Below are positions 1,236-35,734 of a stretch of 64,000 nucleotides of DNA, piece by piece. This stretch comes from an uncultured Verrucomicrobiota bacterium. Its GTDB lineage: Bacteria > Verrucomicrobiota > Kiritimatiellia > RFP12 > UBA3636. The stretch covers positions 1,248-65,247 of the forward strand of contig CAMVRE010000002.1 of assembly GCA_947169825.1 (NCBI GenBank), written 5' to 3'. Each line of letters starts with the position of its first letter. Position 1 is the stretch's first letter. The notes beneath the pieces were generated by a model that worked only from the letters and a program-made list of their open reading frames with translations, did not search any database and had not been told where the DNA came from. Both the position numbers and the translations under genes were made by a program.

Positions 1236-1380
1236 GGAACCAGGCGGCGCAGCCGCCCCACAAAACCTCCGCGAACTCCGCGGACTCCGCGGGAGTTTTC
1301 TCCGGCGCATGGCCCTGCAATCTCTGCGTGGCTACGGCCGGTTCTTGTTGCTTTCCACAAGAGCGGCAACCTTGTTGGAC

Positions 1381-2049
1381 CTATCCCCGCTCGCCGAACA
1401 GCTCCTCCGCAAATTCCGCGTCCATCCATGCGACTAGATCGCCTTTTTCGTCTATTGCGGAGAAGTCTCCACCGGAGTAGTTGCGGAAGAACGCGAACAC
1501 TTCCAGCAGCGTTTTCTTCGCTCGGGCAAAGATGCCCGGGGAGCCGGATTCGCGGGGGCCGGCGACGTTCAGCACGATTCCATCGGCCTGCCCGGGCCGC
1601 ACGGAGTCCTCCAGGGAAAGCATCCAGTTGCGGATCTGGGTGGCGGCGTCGGCGGCGGACAGGAGGACGACCTTGCAGGGGCGTCCGTTCTTCGCGGCAT
1701 GGTCGGCGGTGTAGGCGGTCCCGCCGACGAGCGGAAGCGCGTCGACAAGGATCAGCGTCGCGTCGGAATCGAGCACGTTTCTCCTCGTCCGCTCGCGGAA
1801 TCCGCCCGAAGGGCACTCCTTCAAGGTGTAGAACCCCTCCGGCACCACGCCGTCCTCGGCGAGACGCCCGCAGGGCATCCAGCCCCCGGTCGCGAGGCTG
1901 AACGACATCGCGGCGACGAGACCCGCACGGTCGACGCCGGTCTGTCCGCCGCTCACGATCTTCCACGGCCGGAGGTTCATGCTTTTCGACAATGGCGCTA
2001 GCGGTGTCTTCGCGTCGGTCGATTGTTCTTGATTCTCATTGTTGGACAT
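1381..2049 (-). CDS. SLOG-superfamily protein, YpsA / 'putative molybdenum carrier' type, with ~70-aa C-terminal extension
   Basis: 222-aa ORF. AAGGAG lies 8 nt upstream of ATG 2049. KIVSGGQTGVDRAGLVAA...GGWMPCGRLAEDGVVPEGFYTLKE...RTRRNVLDSDATLILV...GGTAYT matches the SGGQTGVDR...GR.AEDG...RT..NV.DSD.TL signature I know for this family. Confidence 0.7.
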   Translation of the reverse strand: MSNNENQEQSTDAKTPLAPLSKSMNLRPWKIVSGGQTGVDRAGLVAAMSFSLATGGWMPCGRLAEDGVVPEGFYTLKECPSGGFRERTRRNVLDSDATLILVDALPLVGGTAYTADHAAKNGRPCKVVLLSAADAATQIRNWMLSLEDSVRPGQADGIVLNVAGPRESGSPGIFARAKKTLLEVFAFFRNYSGGDFSAIDEKGDLVAWMDAEFAEELFGERG

Positions 2050-2716
2050 GGTTTCTTCTCCTTTCGGTTTTGCGGCCGCGCGGCGGCGGGCAGATGGTCG
2101 GAAAGAAGCACCGGTATTTCTCCAGCACTTCGATCCGATGTTCTGCGAGATACTCCGCGAGGCGGTTCGGATCCGGGCCGCGCTCCTTGTTCCAGGCGAT
2201 GATGGCGCTTTCCAGGTTGGAGCGGGAACAGCGCGGCGCGGCGCCTTCCGGACCGGCTTCCAGATACGCGAGGAGGCCGTCGCGCAGTCGTTCGTATCCG
2301 TCCCACCGGCATTCCGTTCCCGTCCGGTCGATGCCGAAGAATCCGGCGTATCCGTCCATTTGCCGCAACAGCGCCGGCTCGCCGGTCGCGAGCAGGGCGA
2401 CCAGGGAGATTTCGAACGAGAAACTGCGCCGTTCCAGATCGTCGGCCCGGCCCCAGGACTTCACCCGTCGGCTGGCGCACCAGTCGTCCTCGTCGAGCGA
2501 TTCGATCTCGACCGCGTCGTGGAGGAAGACGGCGACCTCTTCGCATTCGACCGTGTCGAAGCGGATTCCGGTCATGTAGAGCTCCCGAAGGACCGCGCCC
2601 GGTCCCGGGCCGTGCTCTTCAAACTCCTCCGCGAACCCCACCATCGTACCGAGGATCGAGCACCAGCGGTATGATTTGTCGTCCGGATAGAGATAGAGCG
2701 TGAACACGTGCGACAT
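2036..2716 (-). CDS. Hypothetical protein; its stop overlaps the SLOG gene start by 14 nt
   Basis: The ORF in the track is 2036-2761. I prefer the internal ATG at 2716 (MSHVFTLYLYPDD...) because the first 15 codons lie in repeat family F; the start remains uncertain. No motif recognised. Confidence 0.55.
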   Translation of the reverse strand: MSHVFTLYLYPDDKSYRWCSILGTMVGFAEEFEEHGPGPGAVLRELYMTGIRFDTVECEEVAVFLHDAVEIESLDEDDWCASRRVKSWGRADDLERRSFSFEISLVALLATGEPALLRQMDGYAGFFGIDRTGTECRWDGYERLRDGLLAYLEAGPEGAAPRCSRSNLESAIIAWNKERGPDPNRLAEYLAEHRIEVLEKYRCFFPTICPPPRGRKTERRRNHVQQ

Positions 2717-2747
2717 CGGGCTGAACTCTGTGTTGGACTCCGCGCGA

Positions 2748-3053
2748 TCATTTCGGCGCATGGCTCTGCGATCTCTGCGTTCTCTGCGTGTGAAAAGGAC
2801 TCCGCGCCGGCACGGCCGGGTCGAAGGTCGCGCGCTCGAGCGCGAAGAGCCCCCGCGCCGGCGCCGACGCGAGCAGCCCCGGGATCTCCTCCGGCGGGAA
2901 CGCTTCGCCCGCGTCCGCGCGCTCGACGACGCGGACGCCCCAGCGCTCCTCCGGCGTCATCGCCGCAATCGCGCGCCGCGCCGCGCGCATCTGCCGCGCC
3001 GCCTCCTCGATCCCGCCCATCGCCTCGATGGCGTTTATGAAACTCTGCATCAT
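2748..3053 (-). CDS. Small hypothetical protein (101 aa); last ~15 codons and the stop lie in repeat family F
   Basis: ORF in the track: MMQSFINAIEAMGGIEEAARQMRAARRAIAAMTPEERWG... A promoter-like TTGATC-N17-TATATT lies just upstream. Coding status is uncertain. Confidence 0.4.
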   Translation of the reverse strand: MMQSFINAIEAMGGIEEAARQMRAARRAIAAMTPEERWGVRVVERADAGEAFPPEEIPGLLASAPARGLFALERATFDPAVPARSPFHTQRTQRSQSHAPK

Positions 3054-3097
3054 CTTCGTGTTGTCTCCGGCGCAAACCGCGCGCCCACACGAGATAG

Positions 3098-3126
3098 AAT
3101 ATACCCCGGGTGTCGTTTGAGATCAA
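3098..3126 (-). promoter_or_regulatory. Sigma70-like promoter TTGATC-N17-TATATT for the 3053->1381 operon
   Basis: Minus strand: TTGATC (comp. 3121-3126), a 17-nt spacer, TATATT (comp. 3098-3103), about 45 nt upstream of ATG 3053. Confidence 0.4.
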
Positions 3127-3188
3127 TGGAGATTTTGGAAAAATTATACTTGCGAGGCCGGGCTTCGGGGGAAATCTCCCCCCGGTCG

Positions 3189-3345
3189 CGGCCGGTCGAC
3201 AAAAGGACAACAGGACACCAGGACGAAAGGTCGCGCCCCCGCCCGCCGAAGGTTCCGGGAGCGCGTTCGATCAAGTCGCCCCTCTCGCCAAAGGCATCAA
3301 GGGCGCGACCTGTTGTCCTTTCGTCCTGTTGTCGAGCGGCCGGCC
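3189..3345. repeat. Repeat family D, inverted pair (~50-nt arms, ~60-nt spacer)
   Basis: Arm 3189-3238 is GGCCGGTCGACAAAAGGACAACAGGACACCAGGACGAAAGGTCGCGCCC. Its approximate reverse complement lies at 3301-3345, and a third copy at 36469-36518. Each arm contains AGGACNNN repeated four times. Confidence 0.6.
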
Positions 3346-4911
3346 TTCGGGGGAAGATTCCCCGCACGGTGTGGGAATGAGATGAGATCGGTTACATGTT
3401 GATTGATAAAATCTCCATGCGTAATCATCTTTTTTGTTAAGGGAATGAGCACGGAACGATTGGATGAATTCCTTGACATAAACTGGGTTGATTTCCTTTT
3501 CGAGTTCCTTCTGGTTCTTCTCAATAAAACCCGCAATTTGACCATATGACAGCAAATGATACTTCCGGGACATGCTATCTTTTTGACTCTTCTTCTTGTC
3601 CTTTTCTTTGATTTCATTTTCCAAATCCTGGATTCGATAGTCTGGAGCCACTACGAAGCAAAGCGGCTTTTTCCGTCTTGGGTGTTCCGATGTTCCAATT
3701 CCCTGCCCCCACTTGTAGTAGGTATTCAGTTGGGAAATCTTCTTTCCCTCATCCACGCCATTTAACCCGCTGTCAATTTTGTTTTCGATGATTATGCGCT
3801 GAATCAAGGTCGTTTCGCCATCATCCGCATAAATGTCGGCGCATACATCCATTCGTCCTTTTGTCGCGTCATCGTCTTCAGACTTGTCTTCGTCCTCTTC
3901 GTTCTTCTCCCAGGAAGGACACTCCTTGTAAACCTTGATTTTCGTCCATTGATTTATATTGAAAACTCGATCACTATTAGGAAGCGATTTCTCGTCACGC
4001 ATGTAAGTGCAAAACTGCTTGAGCATGCTTCCATTCGCAACCCGAAGAACGGAATAGAGCATATTTGTGAATGCCTGCTCGTAGTCTTGAAGAGAAATCA
4101 CCTCCAAAAACAACGAGTTCTTTCCGGGCATCCCCTTGAACTTTTCCTCGTTAAAATACTGTTCATTGACTTGGTTTGGAATAAACTTTTCCAAATTCCC
4201 ATTCTTTATTGATCTTTCAATCTGTTGTTTGAGATTCTTGTATGCTGGATTGTCAACTACATTTGACCTTTTCCCTCTCTGTTTGTTCCAAATGTATCCT
4301 TTGTTTCGCCATTGATAGTTCATCTTGACATGAATTGGACATTTGGCTTCAAAGATTTCGTCTGCCCGGTATGTTACAGCTATATCCCAACGGTTGTCAA
4401 AACATTGATCAAGTGGTTTTCCGTTGTATTGAATATTTAATCTCTTTATCAATTCTCCAGTCAATGCTCCGTTGTCGCGCATCTGTTTGTTGCGCGTTGT
4501 CAGTCGGTGGAGTTTCTCTTTGAGCTTGACGACATACAAGATGTCAAAGGCATACATCTTATCCTCGTTCGCGTTCTTTTTGGTCATCTTTGAGTGACTG
4601 GTAAGAACCAAATACTTGGCAACACACTTTTCTTTTTCGATCCGCTCCAAAGGCCTCTCTGCAGCGCGAATGAGAGGGGGATTTTGGTTTGATTTTGCAG
4701 GACGCTGAAGATCATCCATTTCGCCGACCCAAATGTTATCGGGACAAGTTCCGGCATGTAGACCATAGATGTAGTGCTCGCCGTTGTCATCTCGTAGAAA
4801 ATCAATGATCTCGTGGGCGATATGGCCCTCAGCATCCAGCCATCCACCCAGAAATGGCTTGTTCAAAATAATCACTTCGTTGGAGTAGTCTTTATCACCT
4901 TGCGGTTTCAT
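3271..4911 (-). CDS. PD-(D/E)xK nuclease family protein with unknown ~300-aa N-terminal region (AT-rich island 1)
   Basis: Track ORF 3271-4956, trimmed to the ATG at 4911 where GC drops. The C-terminal half has GRMDVCADIYADD...LIQRIIIENKIDSGL...QLNTYYKW, i.e. a D...(I/V)ENK...QL..Y pattern typical of PD-(D/E)xK (PDDEXK) families. The last ~40 codons (below ~3385) run into GC-rich repeats D and E, so the native 3' end is probably lost. Confidence 0.6.
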   Translation of the reverse strand: MKPQGDKDYSNEVIILNKPFLGGWLDAEGHIAHEIIDFLRDDNGEHYIYGLHAGTCPDNIWVGEMDDLQRPAKSNQNPPLIRAAERPLERIEKEKCVAKYLVLTSHSKMTKKNANEDKMYAFDILYVVKLKEKLHRLTTRNKQMRDNGALTGELIKRLNIQYNGKPLDQCFDNRWDIAVTYRADEIFEAKCPIHVKMNYQWRNKGYIWNKQRGKRSNVVDNPAYKNLKQQIERSIKNGNLEKFIPNQVNEQYFNEEKFKGMPGKNSLFLEVISLQDYEQAFTNMLYSVLRVANGSMLKQFCTYMRDEKSLPNSDRVFNINQWTKIKVYKECPSWEKNEEDEDKSEDDDATKGRMDVCADIYADDGETTLIQRIIIENKIDSGLNGVDEGKKISQLNTYYKWGQGIGTSEHPRRKKPLCFVVAPDYRIQDLENEIKEKDKKKSQKDSMSRKYHLLSYGQIAGFIEKNQKELEKEINPVYVKEFIQSFRAHSLNKKDDYAWRFYQSTCNRSHLIPTPCGESSPEGRPLDNRTKGQQVAPLMPLARGAT

Positions 4912-5190
4912 TTCACGAGATCTCCCAGAGGTTCGTTCCAGTTGGCGAAGCGGCATCGCTCCGGGGGAAGAATTCTACCACAGCCCGTTGTTTCAGTTCA
5001 AGGCGAAAATGGATATAATTTGCGAAAAAGCCGGAACAGACGGACCCCGGCCCTTCGACGCAATTGACGCAGTCGACCAAGTCGGGCTTCCCCCCTCTCG
5101 CCTTCGGGGGGGGAGCGCCCGATTTCGTCGATTTCGTCGCGGCGTCGATTGCGTCGATGTTCGGCCGGACTTCGGGGGAGTCTTCCCCCC

Positions 5191-5270
5191 GGTCGACGAC
5201 ATCGACGATGCCGACGACGTCGACGAACCGCGCACGGAAGGCCGAAGGCGCGAGGTGCGACCGGAATCGG
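5191..5270. repeat. Repeat family C
   Basis: GGTCGACGACATCGACGA(YGCCGACGACRTCGACGA)ACCGCGCACGGAAGGCCGAAGG...GCGACCGGAATC. Other copies lie at 14226-14305 and 37525-37612, with a partial copy at 32745-32815. It is usually preceded by family E (CTTCGGGGG-N5-8-CCCCCGGTCG). Confidence 0.55.
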
Positions 5271-5308
5271 GTCGGCCCGGCCGCGCACGCAGTCCGCGCC
5301 GCTCGAGG

Positions 5309-5408
5309 AGGACGACGAGACGACGGGCTGACGGGACGACGAGAAATCGCGCCACCCTTTCCGAAGGTTCGGGGAGGCGGCTCCCGTCGTCTTGTCGTCC
5401 CGTCGTCG
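5309..5408. repeat. Repeat family A, copy 2
   Basis: GGACGACGAGACGACGGGCTGACGGGACGACGAGAAATCGCGCCACCCTTTCCGAAGGTTCGGGGAGGCGGCTCCCGTCGTCTTGTCGTCCCGTCGTC. Confidence 0.7.
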
Positions 5409-5526
5409 TGTCGGGAAACGGGTCTCGCGCTAGCATCAAATGCGAAATGTCCGGCCTGAGTGCAAGAAGGGTTTTTAGGATTCGGGTGCTAGGCGTCGTT
5501 TCGGGTTACGTGATTCACGAAACCTG

Positions 5527-5548
5527 ACAACAACGCGCAAGCGCGCTG
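5527..5548 (-). terminator. Possible intrinsic terminator after the 839-aa gene
   Basis: The minus strand reads CAGCGCGCTTGCGCGTTGTTGT about 20 nt after the stop at 5568. This is a GCGCGC/GCGCG stem followed by a T-rich run. Confidence 0.35.
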
Positions 5549-5567
5549 AATACCGACGGCAAGGTTG

Positions 5568-8087
5568 CTATTTCAAGAAACCGAGCGTATGCACCATAGG
5601 TCGCATTTTCGCTTCCAATGATTTGAAAAGCTTAACGAACTCGTCATAGTCTGATCTCGCGTATTCTTTGGCCAGCGCCTTTATCTGGTACCATCCGCAA
5701 TCCCAATTCAAAATTTGGTATTCCGGATGTTCTTGGTCAAACAACTCCCTATATTTGAACGTGCCTCTAACAATATCTTTAGCCTTTTCCAAAACCGCCT
5801 GTGCTTCTGCCGAAAGTGTTACGCCTTGTAACTTTGTATAAACGTATCGATCGTTTGAGGTTCTAGCATCGGCGTATGAAAGATTGAAGCCATAGTTGTT
5901 TGCCAACTGTGTCATTTCATCCTTTGACATCCAGAAAAACTCGTTTTTAATGTTCCAAGATTTTCCCTTATAGTTGACGTTTCTTAACGACGATTGATTA
6001 CTTGACGAATGAAACAATGAGAAAACGATTGAATCGTTCACGAACTCGTTGTATTTCGGGTGATCCTCGTTTGGTGCAAGGTATTCGTCCTTTGAGTTAA
6101 TCCAGTTCTTTTTGATTAGTTTGCGTGCGGAAAACAATGCGGTAATCCGCTCATAGTTTTCCTTCATAATCGAAAGTCCGTTGGCATTAGTGGAATCACA
6201 ACTTGTGAAAATGCTGACTTTTAATGTATTTTGATCAACATTATTACCCATATTGGAATAACAACCGAGCGCCATATTGTTGATTTTTGTTTTGCAATTT
6301 TTCCCCAGCTTCACAGACAAGGCACTTGACAAGGTTGGTTTGTCCTCTATGCTGATACCTTTGATTGGCTCCTTTATCCAGTTCTTTGCAGATTTTTCAC
6401 CATCAATGTTATAAACAATCTTTTGATCCATTATTGTCACTTCTCCCGCATTTTCATCAACGCAGTCGTATACAAAATTGTTTTTATCCAGAGTATTTCC
6501 ACATTTCCAGACTGAAAAAGAAATTCCCCAATCCTTTGAAACGTCGGCAAAATGACTAGCACGGAACTGACACGCCTTTTCAAATGCAAATTCTTGCAAA
6601 AAAAACTTTCGAAATACTGCCCAACTTGGTCCCGTTAAGAATAGAGTTGGAGAAAACAACCCTATATGGCAATTTGTTAAATGGTAACCTTGTTTGATTC
6701 TCATTATGCGATACAAAAATTGTGCATACAAATTCTTGCTGGCATTGCCCATTTTGTTCTTAACCATTTCTGCATAAATAGCGCTATCACAAGCTCCAGC
6801 GCCTTTGGTATTTTTTGCTCCTTTTCCATAGTCGCTACTTGCAGTTCCGTATGGCGGATTTATAAAGAACACAATTGGTTTGTCTTGTCGCAAAGCATTG
6901 AGTAATCCTTCAGGGGGTTCTTTTTGCATCGGAACAAAATCATCGGGCATAGGAATGGGGTCGTTCAAGAAATCGAACTGAAACTTTGTCGCTTCTTGGT
7001 TATAATCGGCACCTATGTTCAATTCACTTTGGAACAAGGTTGAGCAATACAGTTCTCGAAATTTGTAATCTCTTGTTAGATTCCCAGTCCCCCAACAGTT
7101 ATCCCAGACTACGCATGTTTCCTTCCAATCCAAACCAATGACATCCTCAATCATCTTATGGGCGTAATCCGCAAACAAAGTAGGTGTCCAGAAATCGCCT
7201 TTTATACGTCTTTCGGCATCTTCGATTAGTCGATCCGCAATTCCTTTAAACCTCATTGTTTCCTGTGGAGTGTAGTTTCTGTCAAAATAGCTGAAAAACG
7301 CTTTGAACGCATTTCCATCCATATTCACGTTTTTACCATTGCATACAAGGAAGTTTGGATAGCTTGGATGCGGATAGTAATTCATTTTATCACTAATGAC
7401 ACCCATAAAGATTTCAACCAAATCATGTGCGCTCAATTTAGTCTTGCCTTTCAACACGTTTCTACAGAAATAGTCAAAAATCCTGGAAAGGTTGTGTTCG
7501 GTGACCCGCACTTGTCTTTGCACGTTGTCTGCCAAATCCTTGATTTTCTCAGCGACGATTTTGAAACTGAAGTTTTCGTTGACACTGAAAACATATGGAT
7601 TGATGTTTGAATCTTGCGAAATTTTTAACACAAATTCTGGGTTAGTTGCGGCGGCGTTGGAAGGGGAAACACCCCAGTCAACGTCTTCGTCCAAGTACTT
7701 TTGCAGCGCGTTGGTTTGTAAAACAAAGCACTCATCCTTGTCCCCCACTAGGCATACATTCGGGAGTACAAGTCCGTTTTCCTCAAAACGCTTCAGATAG
7801 TATATCACTTGTATCAAGACTTTTGCCCTTGAGGCTGTGTTGTTGAGCATTTCGTTAAATTTGTACTCAATAATCAACTTGAGAGTGTTTCCTTTTTCGC
7901 TCTTCGTATCAACAAACCCGTCGCAGTTAAACGGATATTCGATACCCTTTGGGGGGTGGAAATACATATTGATGCCCTTGTTGTAAACATCCTCAACTTG
8001 GCGCTCAATGTCGGCACTCTTGATTTCGTCGTAAAACTTACTCACTGCTACCTCCGATGTGTTTCTAAAGTTTTCTTCTCGCCCCAT
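5568..8087 (-). CDS. Large N6-adenine DNA methyltransferase with N-terminal PD-ExK-like motif; putative type IIG/IIL-style restriction-modification enzyme (AT-rich island 2)
   Basis: 839-aa ORF. SAM motif I-like VVWDNCWGTGNLT and catalytic motif IV FFINPPYGTASS. The N-terminus has CDGFVDTKSEKGNTLKLIIEYKF (D-x13-E-x-K). The long C-terminal region could be a target-recognition domain. Strongly AT-rich relative to the flanks. Confidence 0.7.
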   Translation of the reverse strand: MGREENFRNTSEVAVSKFYDEIKSADIERQVEDVYNKGINMYFHPPKGIEYPFNCDGFVDTKSEKGNTLKLIIEYKFNEMLNNTASRAKVLIQVIYYLKRFEENGLVLPNVCLVGDKDECFVLQTNALQKYLDEDVDWGVSPSNAAATNPEFVLKISQDSNINPYVFSVNENFSFKIVAEKIKDLADNVQRQVRVTEHNLSRIFDYFCRNVLKGKTKLSAHDLVEIFMGVISDKMNYYPHPSYPNFLVCNGKNVNMDGNAFKAFFSYFDRNYTPQETMRFKGIADRLIEDAERRIKGDFWTPTLFADYAHKMIEDVIGLDWKETCVVWDNCWGTGNLTRDYKFRELYCSTLFQSELNIGADYNQEATKFQFDFLNDPIPMPDDFVPMQKEPPEGLLNALRQDKPIVFFINPPYGTASSDYGKGAKNTKGAGACDSAIYAEMVKNKMGNASKNLYAQFLYRIMRIKQGYHLTNCHIGLFSPTLFLTGPSWAVFRKFFLQEFAFEKACQFRASHFADVSKDWGISFSVWKCGNTLDKNNFVYDCVDENAGEVTIMDQKIVYNIDGEKSAKNWIKEPIKGISIEDKPTLSSALSVKLGKNCKTKINNMALGCYSNMGNNVDQNTLKVSIFTSCDSTNANGLSIMKENYERITALFSARKLIKKNWINSKDEYLAPNEDHPKYNEFVNDSIVFSLFHSSSNQSSLRNVNYKGKSWNIKNEFFWMSKDEMTQLANNYGFNLSYADARTSNDRYVYTKLQGVTLSAEAQAVLEKAKDIVRGTFKYRELFDQEHPEYQILNWDCGWYQIKALAKEYARSDYDEFVKLFKSLEAKMRPMVHTLGFLK

Positions 8088-8223
8088 TCGAGACGGAAAG
8101 AAAGATGTTATGTCGATTGTTTGAAAAACCGTTGGTTCTTCGTGGTTGAAACGTCATTGCCGCCGTACTCGTCCGGCAACGATGGAAACGACTTGTTGAA
8201 AAAATTGTTGACTTCTACTCGAA

Positions 8224-9324
8224 TTACACTTGACCGGCAAGCTTGTATTTCGCCAGTTGCGGCTGCGCTTTCAGAAGCCGCGCCCAGTCGTTCTCCGTGA
8301 GAGCTTTCCACATCCCCGATTTCCAGAATTCGTCCTTGCAGAGTTCCACGAATTCGGGATGCTCGCACAGAAGGTCCACCCAATCGCGATTCGTCACTTC
8401 GGACCAGTCGCACTTGTCGACGAGCTGTGGATATTTGACAAGGATCCGCACCCAGTCCTCCCCATTGATGCGCTTCCAGCTCAAATCGTAATTCTTGGCG
8501 GCCTCCTCGTAGTTCTCGAGGATCAAGTCGGCGATCTCGGCCGACGCGAGGTGCGACGTGTCCCATCTCACGACCGATTTGCCGCCTCGGTTTTCAGTGT
8601 CAGTTGGTTGTTCCGGCTTGTATTTCGCCAGTTGCGGCTGCGCTTTCAGAAGCCGCGCCCAGTCGTTCTCCGTGAGAGCTTTCCACATCCCCGATTTCCA
8701 GAATTCGTCCTTGCAGAGTTCCACGAATTCGGGATGCTCGCACAGAAGGTCCACCCAATCGCGATTCGTCACTTCGGACCAGTCGCACTTGTCGACGAGC
8801 TGTGGATATTTGACAAGGATCCGCACCCAGTCCTCCCCATTGATGCGCTTCCAGCTCAAATCGTAATTCTTGGCGGCCTCCTCGTAGTTCTCGAGGATCA
8901 AGTCGGCGATCTCGGCCGACGCGAGGTGCGACGTGTCCCATTTTCCGATCACGACCGATTTGCCGCTTTGGTTTTCAGCGTCAGTTGGTTGTTCCGGCTT
9001 GTATTTCGCCAGTTGTGGCTGCGCTTTCAGAAGTCGAGACCAGTCGTTCTCCGTGAGAGCTTTCCACATCCTCGATTTCAAGAATTCGTCCTTGCAGAGT
9101 TCCACGAATTCGGGATGCTCGCACAGAAGGTCCACCCAATCGCGATTCGTCACTTCAGACCAGTCGCACTTGTCGACGAGCTGGGGAAGTTTGACAAGAA
9201 TCCGCACCCAGTCCTCCCCGTTGATGCGCTTCCAGCTCAAATCGTATTTTTTGACGGCCTCCTCGTAGTTCTTGAGGATCAAGTCGGCAATCTCGGCCGA
9301 CGCAAGATCCGATGTGTCGAACAT
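8224..9324 (-). CDS. W-repeat protein built from three ~125-aa tandem units
   Basis: Track ORF 8224-9666, trimmed to ATG 9324 (AAGGAG 8 nt upstream); the upstream extension translates repeats. Each unit contains DW.RILVKYPQLVDKCDWSEV..RDWVDLLCEHPEFVELC...NDWARLLKAQPQLAKYK. Confidence 0.7.
   Translation of the reverse strand: MFDTSDLASAEIADLILKNYEEAVKKYDLSWKRINGEDWVRILVKLPQLVDKCDWSEVTNRDWVDLLCEHPEFVELCKDEFLKSRMWKALTENDWSRLLKAQPQLAKYKPEQPTDAENQSGKSVVIGKWDTSHLASAEIADLILENYEEAAKNYDLSWKRINGEDWVRILVKYPQLVDKCDWSEVTNRDWVDLLCEHPEFVELCKDEFWKSGMWKALTENDWARLLKAQPQLAKYKPEQPTDTENRGGKSVVRWDTSHLASAEIADLILENYEEAAKNYDLSWKRINGEDWVRILVKYPQLVDKCDWSEVTNRDWVDLLCEHPEFVELCKDEFWKSGMWKALTENDWARLLKAQPQLAKYKLAGQV
8242..9324. 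repeat. Tandem direct repeat, periods 375 and 381 bp, three copies inside the CDS
   Basis: Copy 1 (8242-8566) and copy 2 (8617-8941) look identical by eye over ~325 bp. Copy 3 (from 8998) differs by scattered substitutions and a 6-nt insertion. Confidence 0.85.
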
Positions 9325-9425
9325 GGCGTTGTCTCCTTTGCGGGTTGCTGGTTGTGAAGAGTGGATGATGCGGTGGAACGGCTGTGGCGTTTTCGCCCGC
9401 GCGCAGTGGGCGGGCAACAAGAGGA

Positions 9426-9455
9426 AGTATAGCACGCCGACGGGTGGGAGTTCAA
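9426..9455 (-). promoter_or_regulatory. Sigma70-like promoter TTGAAC-N18-TATACT upstream of the 8224-9324 gene
   Basis: Minus strand: TTGAAC (comp. 9450-9455), an 18-nt spacer, TATACT (comp. 9426-9431). Confidence 0.4.
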
Positions 9456-9474
9456 GGGTAATTTGCGGATTTGC

Positions 9475-9535
9475 AGGGCGTGGCGGGATGGAGACCCCGC
9501 CACGCCCGCATCGGCCGGGCTCCCGCGGCTTCGGC
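9475..9535. repeat. Repeat family B
   Basis: GGGCGTGGCGGG...CCCCGCCACGCCCGCATCGGCCGG...CTCGCGGCT, a CGTGGCGGGG/CCCCGCCACG hairpin with a conserved tail. Other copies lie at 13884-13960, 32666-32740 and 34416-34492, with partial copies at 1085-1128 and 35712-35735. Confidence 0.6.
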
Positions 9536-9543
9536 GCGCAAGG

Positions 9544-9651
9544 AGGACGACGAGACGACAGGCTGACGGGACGACGAGAAATCGCGCCTCCTTTGCCGGA
9601 GGATCGGGGAGGCGTCTCCCGTCGTCTTGTCGTCCCGTCGTCTTGTCGTCC
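9544..9651. repeat. Repeat family A, copy 3
   Basis: GGACGACGAGACGACAGGCTGACGGGACGACGAGAAATCGCGCCTCCTTTGCCGGAGGATCGGGGAGGCGTCTCCCGTCGTCTTGTCGTCCCGTCGTCTTGTCGTCC. Confidence 0.7.
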
Positions 9652-9707
9652 AGAGACGGCTGTCACAGGGGGAAATCCTCCCCCGCTCGCGGCCGCGTCG
9701 CGGAATC

Positions 9708-9766
9708 GGACGGACTTGCGAGCCCTAGTCGGCCCTGCGGTCGGCGCAAAGGCGGAAGGAATCCGA
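9708..9766. repeat. Repeat family G: 3' module carrying the last FGE-type codons, a stop and downstream sequence; free-standing here after ligA
   Basis: 44 nt, GGACTTGCGAGCCCTAGTCGGCCCTGCGGTCGGCGCA(A/G)AGGCGGAAG, are shared with 14340-14383, where they encode ...FRLCADRRAD-stop of the FGE gene. 31 nt are shared with 37880-37912. A related GGACTTGCGGGACC abuts the stop at 32856. Confidence 0.5.
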
Positions 9767-9767
9767 C

Positions 9768-14350: not shown

Positions 14351-15376
14351 CTAGTCGGCCCTGCGGTCGGCGCAGAGGCGGAAGCCGAGGTCGTCCATCG
14401 CGGAGACGAAACACTTGAGATTGCACTCGTAAGCCGGTTGGCGCTCGCGACTGGAAGCCTTCGCCCGCCGGCCGCCGCAGTAGATTCCTTTGTACCCGCA
14501 GTTGCTCGCGGTCCATTCCCCGACCAAGCCGAGCATGTCGTGGAGGCCGAACGCATTGGCGCGCTTTCTGCCGACCGGCGGCAAATCTTCAGAAGTGCCA
14601 TTCCACTCGCCATCGCCCCATGAGACGGTATCGAGGTTCTCTTCCGTGATCTCCACGCCGTCTTCCCGAAGGCAGTAGTCGCCCTTCGATCCGGCGCGAC
14701 AGGCGTATTCCCACTCCTCCGCCGTCGGGAGGCGGAACGAGAGTCCCGAGCTCTTCACGGCGTCCAGTTCGTTCAGCTTCTCGAGAAAACGCTCGCACAC
14801 GCCGTCGTAGGCAATCACCATGTAACGCCGCCACACGTCCTCCCACTCTTCTTCCCCATAATATTCCCGGAACTCATCCTCCCCCTGGTCCTCGAAGGGG
14901 TAGTAGTCGCGCGGGCAGTCCGTGTGGGGAAGGTCGGCGTCGGCCTTCCTCGGGCGAGCGCCGCCCAAAACGGCCCACCATTGCCTGTTCGTCACGGGGA
15001 AAACGCCCATGAACAGTCCCGACGGGAGTTCCTTCATCACGAGGTCGACGCCCTTTCGGGGTAGCGGAACGGTCACGGTCTGAAGAGCCTTTCCGCGGTT
15101 GCGCGCGATTCCGTCCGCGATCTTCTTTTCCGCCTCCGCCTTCGCATCCCGCTCGGCGATCTTCTTGAGAAGGTGCTCGCGGATGCCCTCCATGGTATCG
15201 CCAAGCATGAGCAGCCCGGCCAGGCTTTCCCTAGCCCGTTCCGGAGTCATCCCCGACTCGATCGCGAGCTCTTCGAGGGTCATCGAGGAATAGTCCGGCG
15301 CCGCCTTCTTGACGGATGCCTTCTTCGCGGGAGTTTTCGTAGGTGCCTTCTTCGCGGGCGTCTTCTTCTGTGCCAT
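14351..15376 (-). CDS. FGE/SUMF1-family (formylglycine-generating-enzyme fold) domain protein with Lys/Ala/Pro-rich N-terminal tail
   Basis: Track ORF 14351-15724, trimmed to ATG 15376 (AGGAG upstream). N-terminus MAQKKTPAKKAPTKTPAKKASVKKAAP. The FGE blocks are GVFPVTNRQWW..., SGLSFRLPTAEEWEYACRAGS, NAFGLHDMLGLVGEWT and GFRLCADRR. Confidence 0.8.
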   Translation of the reverse strand: MAQKKTPAKKAPTKTPAKKASVKKAAPDYSSMTLEELAIESGMTPERARESLAGLLMLGDTMEGIREHLLKKIAERDAKAEAEKKIADGIARNRGKALQTVTVPLPRKGVDLVMKELPSGLFMGVFPVTNRQWWAVLGGARPRKADADLPHTDCPRDYYPFEDQGEDEFREYYGEEEWEDVWRRYMVIAYDGVCERFLEKLNELDAVKSSGLSFRLPTAEEWEYACRAGSKGDYCLREDGVEITEENLDTVSWGDGEWNGTSEDLPPVGRKRANAFGLHDMLGLVGEWTASNCGYKGIYCGGRRAKASSRERQPAYECNLKCFVSAMDDLGFRLCADRRAD

Positions 15377-34319: not shown

Positions 34320-34414
34320 TTTTGGTTTCTCCCGTGGCGGGGTCTGCTTCGTACCCTCGCGACGCCCCCGCCGCAACGCCGTCCAGTCTACCACCGCGCG
34401 CGCTTCCGAATCAA
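34320..34414 (-). promoter_or_regulatory. Portable promoter + leader module, copy (TTGATT-N18-TAGACT)
   Basis: Minus strand: TTGATT (comp. 34409-34414), TAGACT (comp. 34385-34390), leader GGACGGCGTTGCGGCGGGGGCGTCGCGAGGGTACGAAG...GGGAGAAACCAAAA-ATG. The hairpin is kept with one G-T wobble. Confidence 0.5.
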
Positions 34415-34493
34415 GCGGCCTCGCAGGGCGTGGTGGGGTCTGCACCCCGCCACGCCCGCATCGGCCGGAATCTCGCGGCTCGCCGCTCGTGGG

Positions 34494-34592
34494 GGACGAC
34501 GAGACGACGGGCTGACGGGACGACGGGAAATCGCGCCTCCTTTCCCGAAGGATCAAGGAGGCGTCTCCCGTCGTCTTGTCGTCCCGTCGTCC
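34494..34592. repeat. Repeat family A, copy 4
   Basis: GGACGACGAGACGACGGGCTGACGGGACGACGGGAAATCGCGCCTCCTTTCCCGAAGGATCAAGGAGGCGTCTCCCGTCGTCTTGTCGTCCCGTCGTCC. The inner stem is CGCCTCCTT/AAGGAGGCG. Confidence 0.7.
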
Positions 34593-34682
34593 TTGGACGG
34601 CCGTCACACGGGGCGGCTTTCCCACACGGCGGCCGATTCTATGGGTTTCGTGCCGTGCGGGGCCAATCGATCTTTGGGAAAA

Positions 34683-35600
34683 TCACTTGCTGCGCAGTTG
34701 GCGAAGGGGATGCAGTTGGCAAAGGGGTTTAATGAGTGACGGCTTTAGTTTTTCGTCCATTTCGTCCGTGATATACTTGATACATTTGCAGGGCGCCTTG
34801 CTCTTCTTGTTTTTCGCGGCAATCGCAAACAGAAACATTTCCAATTCGCCGATGGAGATTCCTTTGTTCCGACATTTTTTGGAGTAATCGTATGTTCCTT
34901 TTAACAGTTGACAATACCTTTCGTACGTTTCGCGCTTGGAGTAATAGAATTTGTCGACGGCGAAATTCTTGTAGGCCAAGTTGAAAATGGTTTCTTGATC
35001 GTGTATGTCCATGTCACCATTTCGGGCGGCAGGTTGTCTGAAAAACATCATCTCGCCACCGTCTATTGTATGCCATCCATTGGTAAAGATCAGCCAGTTC
35101 AACGTGAATGCAACGCGAGAGTCGTACACGGGATATTTTTCGCTGTCGAGAAATGAAGCGACCTTCGAAAGGGACGAAATTCCGTCGAAGCCAATGACAC
35201 CGGCATAATCGTCCGAATTGTTCTTTTTGTCTTTGATTGTATTTCGCAATTCATTGAGCGAATCTTCTTTGGGAACTGAATTGATCTTGCCCCACTCGCC
35301 AACGATCCATTTTGCAATTTTCAAATATGTCTCATCGTCTTGTTTTGACAAAATCTTCGAGAATCTGGATTTTGCTTCCAAGGTTAGTCTGGCCGGGTTA
35401 TCTTTGAATTTTGCGAGTGCCTTTTTGATTTTGTCACATTCAGCCAATTCCATTCCACTGAGAGAATTCAATGGAAAGGGCCAAACGTAGTAGCCTTTGA
35501 GTTCCGTGTTCAACTCGACCTCGAACTTTTCCAGCAGGGCCTTGTAAACTGTTTCCGGAAACAAGCTGGTTTCATTCGAGGGTTCGTTATGCTTCGCCAT
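34683..35600 (-). CDS. Hypothetical 305-aa protein (AT-rich island 3)
   Basis: Track ORF 34683-36197, trimmed to ATG 35600 (MAKHNEPSNETSLF...) at the GC drop. IAKWIVGEWGKINSV...GISSLSKVASFLDSEKYPVYDSRVAFTLNWL is faintly reminiscent of 'OGG-fold' glycosylase-like hypothetical proteins; confidence in that function is very low. Confidence 0.65.
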   Translation of the reverse strand: MAKHNEPSNETSLFPETVYKALLEKFEVELNTELKGYYVWPFPLNSLSGMELAECDKIKKALAKFKDNPARLTLEAKSRFSKILSKQDDETYLKIAKWIVGEWGKINSVPKEDSLNELRNTIKDKKNNSDDYAGVIGFDGISSLSKVASFLDSEKYPVYDSRVAFTLNWLIFTNGWHTIDGGEMMFFRQPAARNGDMDIHDQETIFNLAYKNFAVDKFYYSKRETYERYCQLLKGTYDYSKKCRNKGISIGELEMFLFAIAAKNKKSKAPCKCIKYITDEMDEKLKPSLIKPLCQLHPLRQLRSK

Positions 35601-35693
35601 TTTGTTCTTTGTTTTAGCGGGGTTGGTTTCGTGCCGTCGCGGCGCTCCCGCCGCAACGCCTCCCAGTCTACCACCGCGCGCGCTGCGGTTCAA
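35601..35693 (-). promoter_or_regulatory. Portable promoter + leader module, copy (TTGAAC-N17-TAGACT)
   Basis: Minus strand: TTGAAC (comp. 35688-35693), TAGACT (comp. 35665-35670), leader GGGAGGCGTTGCGGCGGGAGCGCCGCGACGGCACGAAACCAACCCCGC...ATG. Confidence 0.5.
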
Positions 35694-35734
35694 GGGAGAT
35701 TCGCGGCGCGGCGGCCTCGCAGGGCGTGGCGGAT

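What the first reader, a model, noticed from the sequence alone, without database searches (positions are those of the whole stretch)
3189..5567. AT-rich cargo genes are individually framed by the GC-rich repeat mosaic, and one ORF runs into a repeat
Seen: each AT-rich gene (3385-4911, 5568-8223, 34683-35600) is bounded on both sides by blocks of repeat families A-E. The two restriction-type genes are separated by ~600 bp of pure repeat mosaic (4957-5567). The 546-aa nuclease ORF has no native stop: its last ~40 codons are translated from repeats E and D (3271-3385). The 306-aa gene sits directly behind a portable promoter module. Inference: the repeats may act as recombination or insertion sites that capture foreign genes one at a time, giving an integron-like outcome without any visible integrase or attC-like site.
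Basis: inference. Interest (0 to 1): 0.6.

Follow-up and report, generated by a model that had tools for sequence, protein, structure and literature searches.

The report
Repeat mosaic around imported defence genes
Two or three recently imported low-GC defence-type genes of a rumen Kiritimatiellae bacterium sit between GC-rich hairpin and promoter repeats, but these repeats are general gene-boundary elements of this genus, found beside housekeeping genes too, and are not a dedicated gene-capture device.

Summary
Three low-GC genes are real and foreign. They are a PD-(D/E)xK-family nuclease, a type IIG-like restriction-methylase and a 305-aa unknown. The first two were searched for in 30 related genomes and not found. 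The nuclease has lost its own stop and reads 41 codons into a hairpin repeat.

The framing is overstated. Only about 60% of the 611-bp spacer is repeated DNA. The methylase's upstream side has no repeat.

The framing is also not special. In this window 12 of 16 long intergenic regions carry repeats whatever their neighbours. Genome-wide, repeats occur in 30% of native-native spacers and 21% of spacers beside low-GC genes. Only 2 of 37 low-GC genes are framed on both sides. One hairpin-A copy follows a class II aminoacyl-tRNA synthetase gene.

I found no attC-type ends, no short delimiter repeat and no linked recombinase.

Some support remains. Families A, B, C and P are enriched beside low-GC genes. 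Two congeners hold different cargo between the same modules. Strain-level breakpoints fall at module edges.

Best reading: NIME/BIME-like terminator and promoter modules in a hypervariable island, probably aiding homologous shuffling of transcription units.

The scan has noted similar repeat mosaics on other DNA (e1-726939, e1-3208123).

The parts
3271..4911 (-). 546-aa PD-(D/E)xK-family nuclease gene, GC 0.44. The native part is about 3397-4911. The read-through tail of 41 codons is 3274-3396, with the stop at 3271-3273.
   Evidence: 132 homologues, some named PD-(D/E)XK nuclease or carrying PF14281. The alignment shows that homologues end just after residue 505. Sequence read.
3188..3375 (.). 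Hairpin element 'D/E': a long imperfect palindrome of GGAC(A/G)A-type runs (3188-3341) plus a GGGGAATCTTCCCCCGAAGG unit (3340-3375; a second unit lies at about 3160-3195). It supplies the last ~34 codons of the nuclease ORF.
   Evidence: nhmmer finds 7 loci on 5 contigs, all intergenic. Sequence read.
3054..3192 (-). Native promoter region of the downstream operon (TTGATC-N17-TATATT at 3126-3098). It has an 88% identical copy on contig C111.
4957..5054 (-). Unique stretch upstream of the nuclease gene, with a promoter-like TTGAAC-N18-TAGAAT site (5001-4972).
   Evidence: No other copy in the genome. Consensus scan.
5055..5296 (.). Repeat modules C (5055-5159) and B (5191-5281), both hairpin-forming. 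They occur in the same order on C78 and C7.
5297..5413 (.). Hairpin A: a ~105-nt palindrome built of GACGAC(G/A) runs around an inner stem. It lies 155 nt downstream of the methylase stop.
   Evidence: 16 loci in the genome, all intergenic, none between divergent genes. The consensus fold has 31 pairs. Restricted to the genus.
5414..5567 (-). Unique DNA downstream of the methylase gene. Not repeated.
5568..8045 (-). 825-aa single-chain restriction-methylase of type IIG/IIL kind, GC 0.40. It carries motif I VVWDNCWGTGNL and motif IV FFINPPYG.
   Evidence: 3054 homologues without a Pfam domain, sitting in 40% GC contigs with varying defence neighbours. The fold matches BpuSI, BsaXI, BrxX, DrdV and MmeI.
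8088..8223 (-). AT-rich unique stretch upstream of the methylase gene. It abuts the stop codon of the W-repeat gene and holds no repeat.
9325..9767 (.). Mosaic after ligA: remnant of an FGE-gene tail (9711-9754), hairpin A (9532-9648), module G_77 (9463-9541) and a promoter-like site (9455-9426).
34683..35600 (-). 305-aa low-GC gene of unknown function, GC 0.44.
35600..35707 (-). Promoter-leader-RBS module P, directly in front of the 305-aa gene.
34320..34597 (.). Mosaic after the 305-aa gene: hairpin A (34481-34597), G_77 (34415-34491) and module P (34320-34417) leading the next gene.

Best explanation
The low-GC genes are ordinary, independently acquired defence-type genes. They lie in a hypervariable accessory island (DNA repair and defence) of an uncultured rumen Kiritimatiellae bacterium.

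The GC-rich 'mosaic' around them is built from genus-specific reusable intergenic modules. These are long palindromes placed 40-150 nt after stop codons, which probably act as terminators or insulators. They are followed by a G_77 module and a reused promoter-leader cassette. Such modules mark transcription-unit boundaries all over the genome, including after a housekeeping synthetase gene. Any gene in this island therefore ends up framed by them.

Because the modules are dispersed homologous sequences, they probably also serve as substrates for general homologous recombination. That recombination swaps whole transcription units between strains, as proposed for NIME arrays and minimal mobile elements in Neisseria.

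The first entry of the foreign genes was by illegitimate joins unrelated to the repeats. One such join or a later mutation removed the nuclease's stop codon. In 66% GC DNA that gives a read-through of about 40 codons by chance.

Shown: foreign origin, repeat distribution, junction positions, and absence of attC ends or an integrase. Inferred: the terminator role and recombination at the modules.
For: Foreign and independent cargo:
- The 825-aa protein has 3054 homologues. The contexts I examined were ~40% GC contigs with variable defence neighbours and never held the nuclease.
- Nuclease relatives sit beside TIR or type I R-M genes, not beside this methylase.
- Neither gene was found in 30 family genomes.

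General distribution of the repeats:
- 341 of 1154 intergenic regions carry at least 30 nt of a repeat with at least 5 copies. The rate is 30% for native-native regions and 21% next to low-GC genes, p=0.25.
- The rate is 16% between divergent genes against 33% elsewhere, p=1e-6.
- Hairpin A has 16 loci, all intergenic and none between divergent genes. One lies 38 nt after a class II aminoacyl-tRNA synthetase gene.
- Hairpin A occurs in 9 of 11 genus genomes and in none of 19 genomes of other genera.
- In the window, 12 of 16 long intergenic regions hold repeats regardless of neighbour.

Junctions:
- The AT-rich DNA starts right after the W-repeat gene's stop. That gene's end matches its G001 orthologue.
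- The nuclease tail is 41 codons. The expected open run in 66% GC DNA is 42 codons.

Recombination at modules:
- In G001 and G004 the same flanks (P upstream, G_77-P downstream) enclose a different low-GC gene and a different hairpin.
- In a 98.7% identical strain (L026), homology downstream of ligA ends exactly at the end of the FGE-tail module. Upstream of the ligA promoter, a B/A/G_77 mosaic replaces the 725-aa gene.
Against: - Families A, B, C and P are enriched next to low-GC genes (odds ratios 7-25, small numbers). Passive boundary elements do not by themselves predict this. Single imported genes being their own transcription units, and permissive long spacers, could explain it.
- The terminator role is untested.
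- Covariation in hairpin A is weak: 3 of 31 pairs.
- The assembly is 73% complete and fragmented at repeats, so copy counts are underestimates and a recombinase could be missing.
- Several strain-level breakpoints are not at modules, for example the deletion between the 227-aa gene and ypsA relative to L033.
Confidence: 0.6

Rival explanations
1. The repeats are dedicated capture sites. A hairpin-recognising recombinase inserts cassettes made of an ORF plus a palindrome one at a time between promoter modules. This would be an integron-like system with its own kind of attC.
For: - Each cargo ORF is followed by a 100-170-nt imperfect palindrome. In one case the palindrome overlaps the ORF end.
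- All units are co-oriented.
- G000 and G001/G004 hold different ORF-plus-hairpin units between the same P and G_77 modules.
- Hairpin families are enriched by low-GC genes.
- Three HUH/Y1-transposase-like genes exist in the genome.
Against: - No RYYYAAC...GTTRRRY ends: 2 in the window against 3.65 in shuffles, and none in the mosaics.
- No conserved short core at module edges.
- PF00589 gives only two weak matches, on another contig.
- The Y1-like genes are not flanked by these repeats.
- Most low-GC genes lack repeats, and the same hairpins follow native and housekeeping genes.
- Units have their own promoter-like sites.
- The methylase's upstream junction has no repeat.
Confidence: 0.08
2. 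The repeats are small non-autonomous mobile elements (MITE or REPIN type). They invaded the spacers after the foreign genes arrived, preferring long, dispensable or AT-rich intergenic DNA.
For: - Hairpin A is a discrete ~105-nt unit with sharp ends and unrelated flanks.
- It is genus-restricted, with 0-8 matches in relatives and 17 here.
- The window copies are the most alike (about 91%), which suggests recent local copying.
- Y1-transposase-like genes are present.
Against: - No target-site duplications were seen at 12 copies.
- No AT-rich remainder of the nuclease's 3' end lies beyond the hairpin. It therefore did not simply insert into foreign DNA.
- Modules recur in fixed orders (C-B; A-G_77-P), as blocks rather than as single insertions.
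- The Y1-like genes lack flanking copies.
Confidence: 0.15
3. The boundary elements are purely passive. The repeats play no part in gene gain or rearrangement, and the local framing is coincidence within a repeat-rich region.
For: The within-window and genome-wide frequencies are no higher next to low-GC genes.
Against: - Specific families are enriched next to low-GC genes.
- Breakpoints lie at module edges in L026, and cargo differs between shared modules in G001/G004.
Confidence: 0.17

Closest known systems
Neisserial intergenic mosaic elements (NIMEs: dRS3 plus RS units) (Schoen et al. 2009, PMC3898611)
   Same: - Intergenic arrays of a few hundred bp are built from several repeat families in varying order.
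- They are associated with variable, horizontally acquired or surface genes.
- They are proposed to promote recombination with incoming DNA. The example is pilC1, flanked by NIME arrays.
   Different: - There is no 20-bp dRS3-like delimiter here.
- There is no phage integrase that targets the repeats.
- The units here are long GC-rich palindromes of short tandem runs plus a promoter cassette.
- Recombination is inferred from three comparisons only.
BIME/REP elements of enterobacteria and REPINs of Pseudomonas
   Same: - They are palindromic units combined into mosaics.
- They sit after 3' ends of genes and are rare between divergent genes.
- They are lineage-restricted with variable copy number.
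   Different: - I saw no GTAG-type tag.
- The three Y1-transposase-like genes are not flanked by the repeats.
- The units are about 100 nt rather than 20-40 nt.
Integron gene cassettes and CALINs (attC clusters without an integrase)
   Same: Co-oriented single genes, each followed by an imperfect palindrome of about 60-170 nt. One ORF runs into its palindrome, as happens with attC.
   Different: - No attC end motifs.
- No IntI.
- Each unit has a promoter-like site.
- The same palindromes follow ordinary native genes.
Minimal mobile elements (MMEs) of Neisseria (Saunders and Snyder; summarised in PMC3898611)
   Same: The same flanks hold different whole-gene cassettes in different genomes, without dedicated mobility genes.
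   Different: The flanks here are about 100-200-nt repeated regulatory modules, not conserved single-copy genes. Orthology of the slot is therefore uncertain, and only one slot was documented.
Putative mobile promoters (Matus-Garcia et al. 2012), as named by the earlier follow-up e1-2795183
   Same: Module P is a reused promoter-leader cassette in front of unrelated genes.
   Different: That concept covers only the upstream module. It does not cover the downstream hairpins or the framing.

Membership tests
Integron / CALIN | IntI-type tyrosine recombinase next to the array | tested here: not met
   PF00589 search of the whole assembly gives two weak matches (25.6 and 20.6 bits) on contig C212 and none on the window's contig. 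The assembly is 73% complete, so absence elsewhere is not proven.
Integron / CALIN | attC sites with RYYYAAC ... GTTRRRY ends, 57-141 nt apart | tested here: not met
   The pattern scan finds 2 in the window against 3.65 in shuffles, and none in any mosaic next to cargo. The attC covariance model was not available.
Integron / CALIN | Promoterless cassettes read from one common promoter | tested here: not met
   Promoter-like TTGAAC-N18-TAnAnT sites precede the nuclease and W-repeat genes. Module P precedes the 305-aa gene. These are consensus matches only.
Integron / CALIN | Each ORF followed by an imperfect palindrome | tested here: met
   Hairpin D/E follows the nuclease gene. Hairpin A follows the methylase, the 305-aa gene and ligA.
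NIME/BIME-type intergenic mosaic | Several repeat families combined in varying order inside intergenic regions | tested here: met
   Modules A, B, C, D/E, G_77 and P recur in different combinations on C2, C6, C7, C78 and C79.
NIME/BIME-type intergenic mosaic | Confined to non-coding DNA | tested here: met
   All 38 loci of A, B, C and D/E are intergenic by midpoint. Family F is not: 45 of 67 copies lie inside ORFs.
NIME/BIME-type intergenic mosaic | Short conserved delimiter (dRS3 20-mer, or the GTAG tag of REP) | tested here: not met
   Candidate short motifs at module edges are not recurrent. Only a few patterns were tried.
NIME/BIME-type intergenic mosaic | Lineage-restricted with variable copy number | tested here: met
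   Hairpin A occurs in 9 of 11 genus genomes and in none of 19 from other genera, with 0-8 matches against 17 here.
REP/REPIN with RAYT | Y1 (HUH) transposase gene flanked by its cognate palindromes | tested here: not met
   Three ~340-aa PF01797-positive paralogues lie on C65, C113 and C53. Their flanks hold no repeat with 5 or more copies.
Minimal mobile element | Same flanks, different whole-gene cassettes in different strains | tested here: inconclusive
   One slot: P ... G_77-P with the 305-aa gene plus hairpin A in G000, against a 203/239-aa gene plus hairpin B in G001/G004. The flanks are multi-copy modules, so orthology is uncertain.
MITE | Terminal inverted repeats with target-site duplication | tested here: not met
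   The units are palindromic, but I saw no duplication at the ends of 12 aligned copies.
Type IIG/IIL restriction-modification enzyme (825-aa protein) | Gamma-class N6-adenine methylase core (motif I before NPPY) fused to nuclease and target-recognition parts | tested here: met
   Motifs VVWDNCWGTGNL and FFINPPYG are in the sequence. Best fold matches are BpuSI 3s1s (E 6e-6), BsaXI, BrxX, DrdV and MmeI. The model is of moderate quality (pLDDT 66). The N-terminal D...EYK nuclease motif was read by eye only.
PD-(D/E)XK nuclease family (546-aa protein) | Sequence membership | tested here: inconclusive
   Homologues are named PD-(D/E)XK nuclease by NCBI, and some carry PF14281. The protein itself hits no Pfam, NCBIfam or PADLOC model.

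The most novel reading that the evidence does not exclude
In this Kiritimatiellae genus, accessory genes travel as units of 'ORF plus long palindrome'. These units are exchanged precisely between a reusable promoter-start module and a G_77 module. The exchange would be done by a hairpin-recognising enzyme not yet identified, or by very short homology. This would be an integrase-less functional analogue of integron cassettes that also recruits foreign defence genes.
Probability: 0.12. Interest if true: 0.7.

Novelty: new member of a known kind. Interest (0 to 1): 0.35.

Why it matters
- The result shows how a very GC-rich, uncultured rumen lineage packages newly imported low-GC defence genes. 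Each becomes its own transcription unit between native hairpin and promoter modules.
- It adds a PVC-group example to the few well-described intergenic mosaic repeat systems (NIME, BIME).
- It warns annotators that in this genome GC-rich repeats extend ORFs. The nuclease is one example, and 18 family-F copies lie at ORF 3' ends.
- If the modules really mediate unit exchange, they would be a simple, enzyme-free route to defence-gene turnover.

Tried and rejected
- Rfam and tRNA scans of the window found nothing, so the modules are not known RNAs.
- An empty-site comparison failed. The flanking genes (ligA paralogue, 227-aa gene, ypsA operon) are themselves accessory, and synteny with G001, L025 and L033 is scrambled.
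- The one metagenome scan gave only two loci.
- The exact-sequence look-up of the 305-aa protein found nothing.
- Pfam, NCBIfam, PADLOC and PDB sequence searches gave no hits for the cargo proteins.
- I first read the W-repeat gene as truncated by the AT-rich insert. I rejected this because the G001 orthologue ends the same way.
- An apparent third low-GC gene framed on both sides (C7:8273-8848) is a spurious ORF across repeat DNA.
- Gene calls come from my own simple codon-bias caller. The repeat threshold (at least 5 copies, at least 30 nt) is arbitrary.
Full report
**Setting.** The window is contig C2:1248-65247 of a 3.08-Mb, 394-contig, 69% GC assembly. Earlier notes of this scan place it in an uncultured rumen Kiritimatiellae bacterium. 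The assembly is 73% complete.

**The cargo genes.**
- Composition and ORF listing confirm three low-GC genes on the minus strand: 3271-4911 (546 aa, GC 0.44), 5568-8045 (825 aa, GC 0.40) and 34683-35600 (305 aa, GC 0.44).
- The 825-aa protein belongs to a family of 3054 proteins without any Pfam domain.
  - The contexts examined are ~40% GC contigs where the neighbours vary (Abi_alpha, SIR2_2, AAA, NT5C). They never include the nuclease.
  - Nucleotide similarity to the closest relatives is confined to the ORF.
  - A structure model (pLDDT 66) finds the type IIG enzyme BpuSI first, then BsaXI, BrxX, DrdV and MmeI. Together with motifs I and IV (NPPY), this supports a single-chain restriction-methylase.
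- The 546-aa protein has 132 relatives. Some are named PD-(D/E)XK nuclease, and they lie next to TIR or type I R-M genes.
- I found neither gene in 30 other genomes of the family. Both are recent and separate imports.

**The stop-less ORF.**
- Nine homologues end 1-5 residues after the position of T505.
- The window protein continues with CNRSHLIPTPCGESSPEGRPLDNRTKGQQVAPLMPLARGAT.
- The first ~7 extra codons are still AT-rich DNA. The rest lie in the hairpin element at 3188-3375.
- In 66% GC sequence an open frame lasts 42 codons on average, so the tail length needs no special explanation.
- An independent assembly from sample ERZ14209544 covers 3045-8670 with two mismatches, both elsewhere. 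The arrangement is therefore real.
- Reading into repeats is common in this genome. 45 of 67 copies of family F lie inside called ORFs, 18 of them at 3' ends.

**What the mosaic is.**
- The 611-bp spacer holds, in order:
  - a unique promoter-like stretch (4957-5054);
  - modules C, B and A (5055-5413);
  - 154 unique bases.
- Hairpin A is a ~105-nt palindrome of GACGAC(G/A) runs with an inner stem.
  - 12 full copies fold alike, with little covariation.
  - Its 16 loci are all intergenic. In intact copies the hairpin starts typically 40-150 nt (up to about 300 nt) after a stop codon. Among the 15 loci with both neighbours called, 13 lie between tandem genes, 2 between convergent genes and none between divergent genes.
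  - One locus follows a class II aminoacyl-tRNA synthetase gene. Others follow a hydrolase and a lipase gene.
  - It occurs in 9 of 11 genomes of the genus and in none of 19 from sister genera.
- Along the direction of transcription the usual order is: stop, hairpin, G_77, promoter module, next gene.
- This fits terminator or insulator plus promoter modules. That role is inferred, not shown.

**Is the framing special?**
- I made my own gene calls (2286 genes) and compared every intergenic region with the genome.
- 341 of 1154 intergenic regions hold at least 30 nt of a repeat with at least 5 copies. By neighbour type the rates are:
  - 30% of native-native regions;
  - 24% of regions with one low-GC neighbour;
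  - 10% of regions with two low-GC neighbours.
  Pooled, that is 21% against 30%, p=0.25.
- Of 37 low-GC genes, only the nuclease and the 305-aa gene are truly framed on both sides. A third apparent case is a spurious ORF.
- Within the window, 12 of 16 long intergenic regions carry repeats whatever the neighbours.
- The methylase's upstream side has none. AT-rich DNA starts just after the W-repeat gene's stop, and that gene's end matches its orthologue in G001.
- However, families A, B, C and P taken alone are enriched beside low-GC genes. For A it is 5 of 15 against 47 of 1154, p=2e-4. For the union outside this contig it is 3 of 17, p=0.02. Their neighbours have lower GC than average (0.59 against 0.67).
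- These modules therefore concentrate in accessory regions.

**Signatures of a dedicated system.** I found none.
- No attC-type ends.
- No recurrent short delimiter.
- Only weak tyrosine-recombinase matches, on another contig.
- Three HUH/Y1-transposase-like paralogues have flanks that lack the repeats.

**Comparisons with relatives.**
- Homology with G001 and with L025 stops at the ligA stop codon. Different genes follow in each.
- In a 98.7% identical strain (L026):
  - homology runs through ligA and a 44-nt remnant of an FGE-gene tail, and ends exactly at the end of that module;
  - upstream of the ligA promoter, a B/A/G_77 mosaic stands where G000 has a 725-aa gene.
- In G001 and G004, module P and a downstream G_77-P pair enclose a different low-GC gene and hairpin B.
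  - That gene is 203/239 aa with a D...ELK motif.
  - G000 has the 305-aa gene and hairpin A at this place.
  - Also in G001, module P cuts off a DUF262-like gene after 40 codons.
- Other differences are unrelated to modules. Examples are a 2.4-kb deletion and a 320-nt deletion in G000 relative to L033.
- Together these comparisons show an island in rapid flux where module edges often, but not always, coincide with breakpoints. This is what homologous exchange between dispersed module copies would leave.

**Comparison with known systems.**
- The closest are the NIME arrays and minimal mobile elements of Neisseria. The same idea has been proposed for them: repeat arrays promote exchange of adjacent genes, and pilC1 is flanked by arrays (PMC3898611).
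- The BIME/REP mosaics of enterobacteria are also close.
- The present case differs in unit structure. It also lacks a short delimiter and an integrase.
- The scan has already reported similar mosaics in other genomes (e1-726939, e1-3208123) and the promoter module in this one (e1-2795183).

**Verdict.**
- The arrangement is real but ordinary for this genome region.
- The capture-site reading is not supported in its strong form.
- A weaker role of the modules in homologous shuffling of transcription units is plausible.

Noticed in passing
L037/L042 (G001:C118, about 94950-95250): In the congener G001, the first 40 codons of a DUF262/GmrSD-like gene (MQAIAIDKTIKTAMENIKSHQFVLPAIQRKFVWSPERPKI) are cut off by a copy of promoter module P. 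That copy leads a low-GC 203-aa gene.
   Followed up: partly
window 1982-2081 and 2450; L033:545-866 and 1249-3612: Relative to a 95-97% identical strain (L033) and to G001, this genome lacks a ~320-nt internal piece of the 227-aa gene. It also lacks a 2.4-kb block between that gene and ypsA. The block holds an F-repeat mosaic plus three genes, including a YqiA-like esterase. Here the two genes overlap instead.
   Followed up: partly
L025:11838-11881: In GCA_018396375.1 the ligA paralogue has lost its stop (TAG to CAG). It reads 13 codons into the downstream sequence. This is another stop-less ORF in the lineage.
   Followed up: no
G000 contigs C65:1562-2575, C113:1010-2035, C53:2-262: Three ~80% identical paralogues of a ~340-aa protein carry an IS200/Y1-transposase (PF01797) N-terminal domain with an HUH-like SNHFHLLV motif. 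They are GC-typical and not flanked by multi-copy repeats.
   Followed up: partly
window 5568-8045: The 825-aa restriction-methylase family has over 3000 members in gut and rumen metagenomes. It has no Pfam, NCBIfam or PADLOC model and no sequence match in the PDB. Only the fold links it to type IIG/IIL enzymes.
   Followed up: partly
G000 contig C47:1855-2673: A GDSL lipase gene ends in three in-frame copies of the family-F octamer repeat, translated as SHAESAENAE.
   Followed up: no
window 9711-9754 and 14351-14394; L026:2209-2252: A 44-nt remnant of the last codons and stop of an FGE-domain gene sits after ligA in two strains. It marks the point where their downstream sequences diverge. This suggests ligA replaced the body of an FGE gene inside its regulatory frame.
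   Followed up: partly
G000 contig C6:16000-23000: A second array of small GC-typical accessory genes has module B in three successive spacers. The genes include an HNH-like protein, a NUDIX protein and two paralogous ~190-aa proteins.
   Followed up: no
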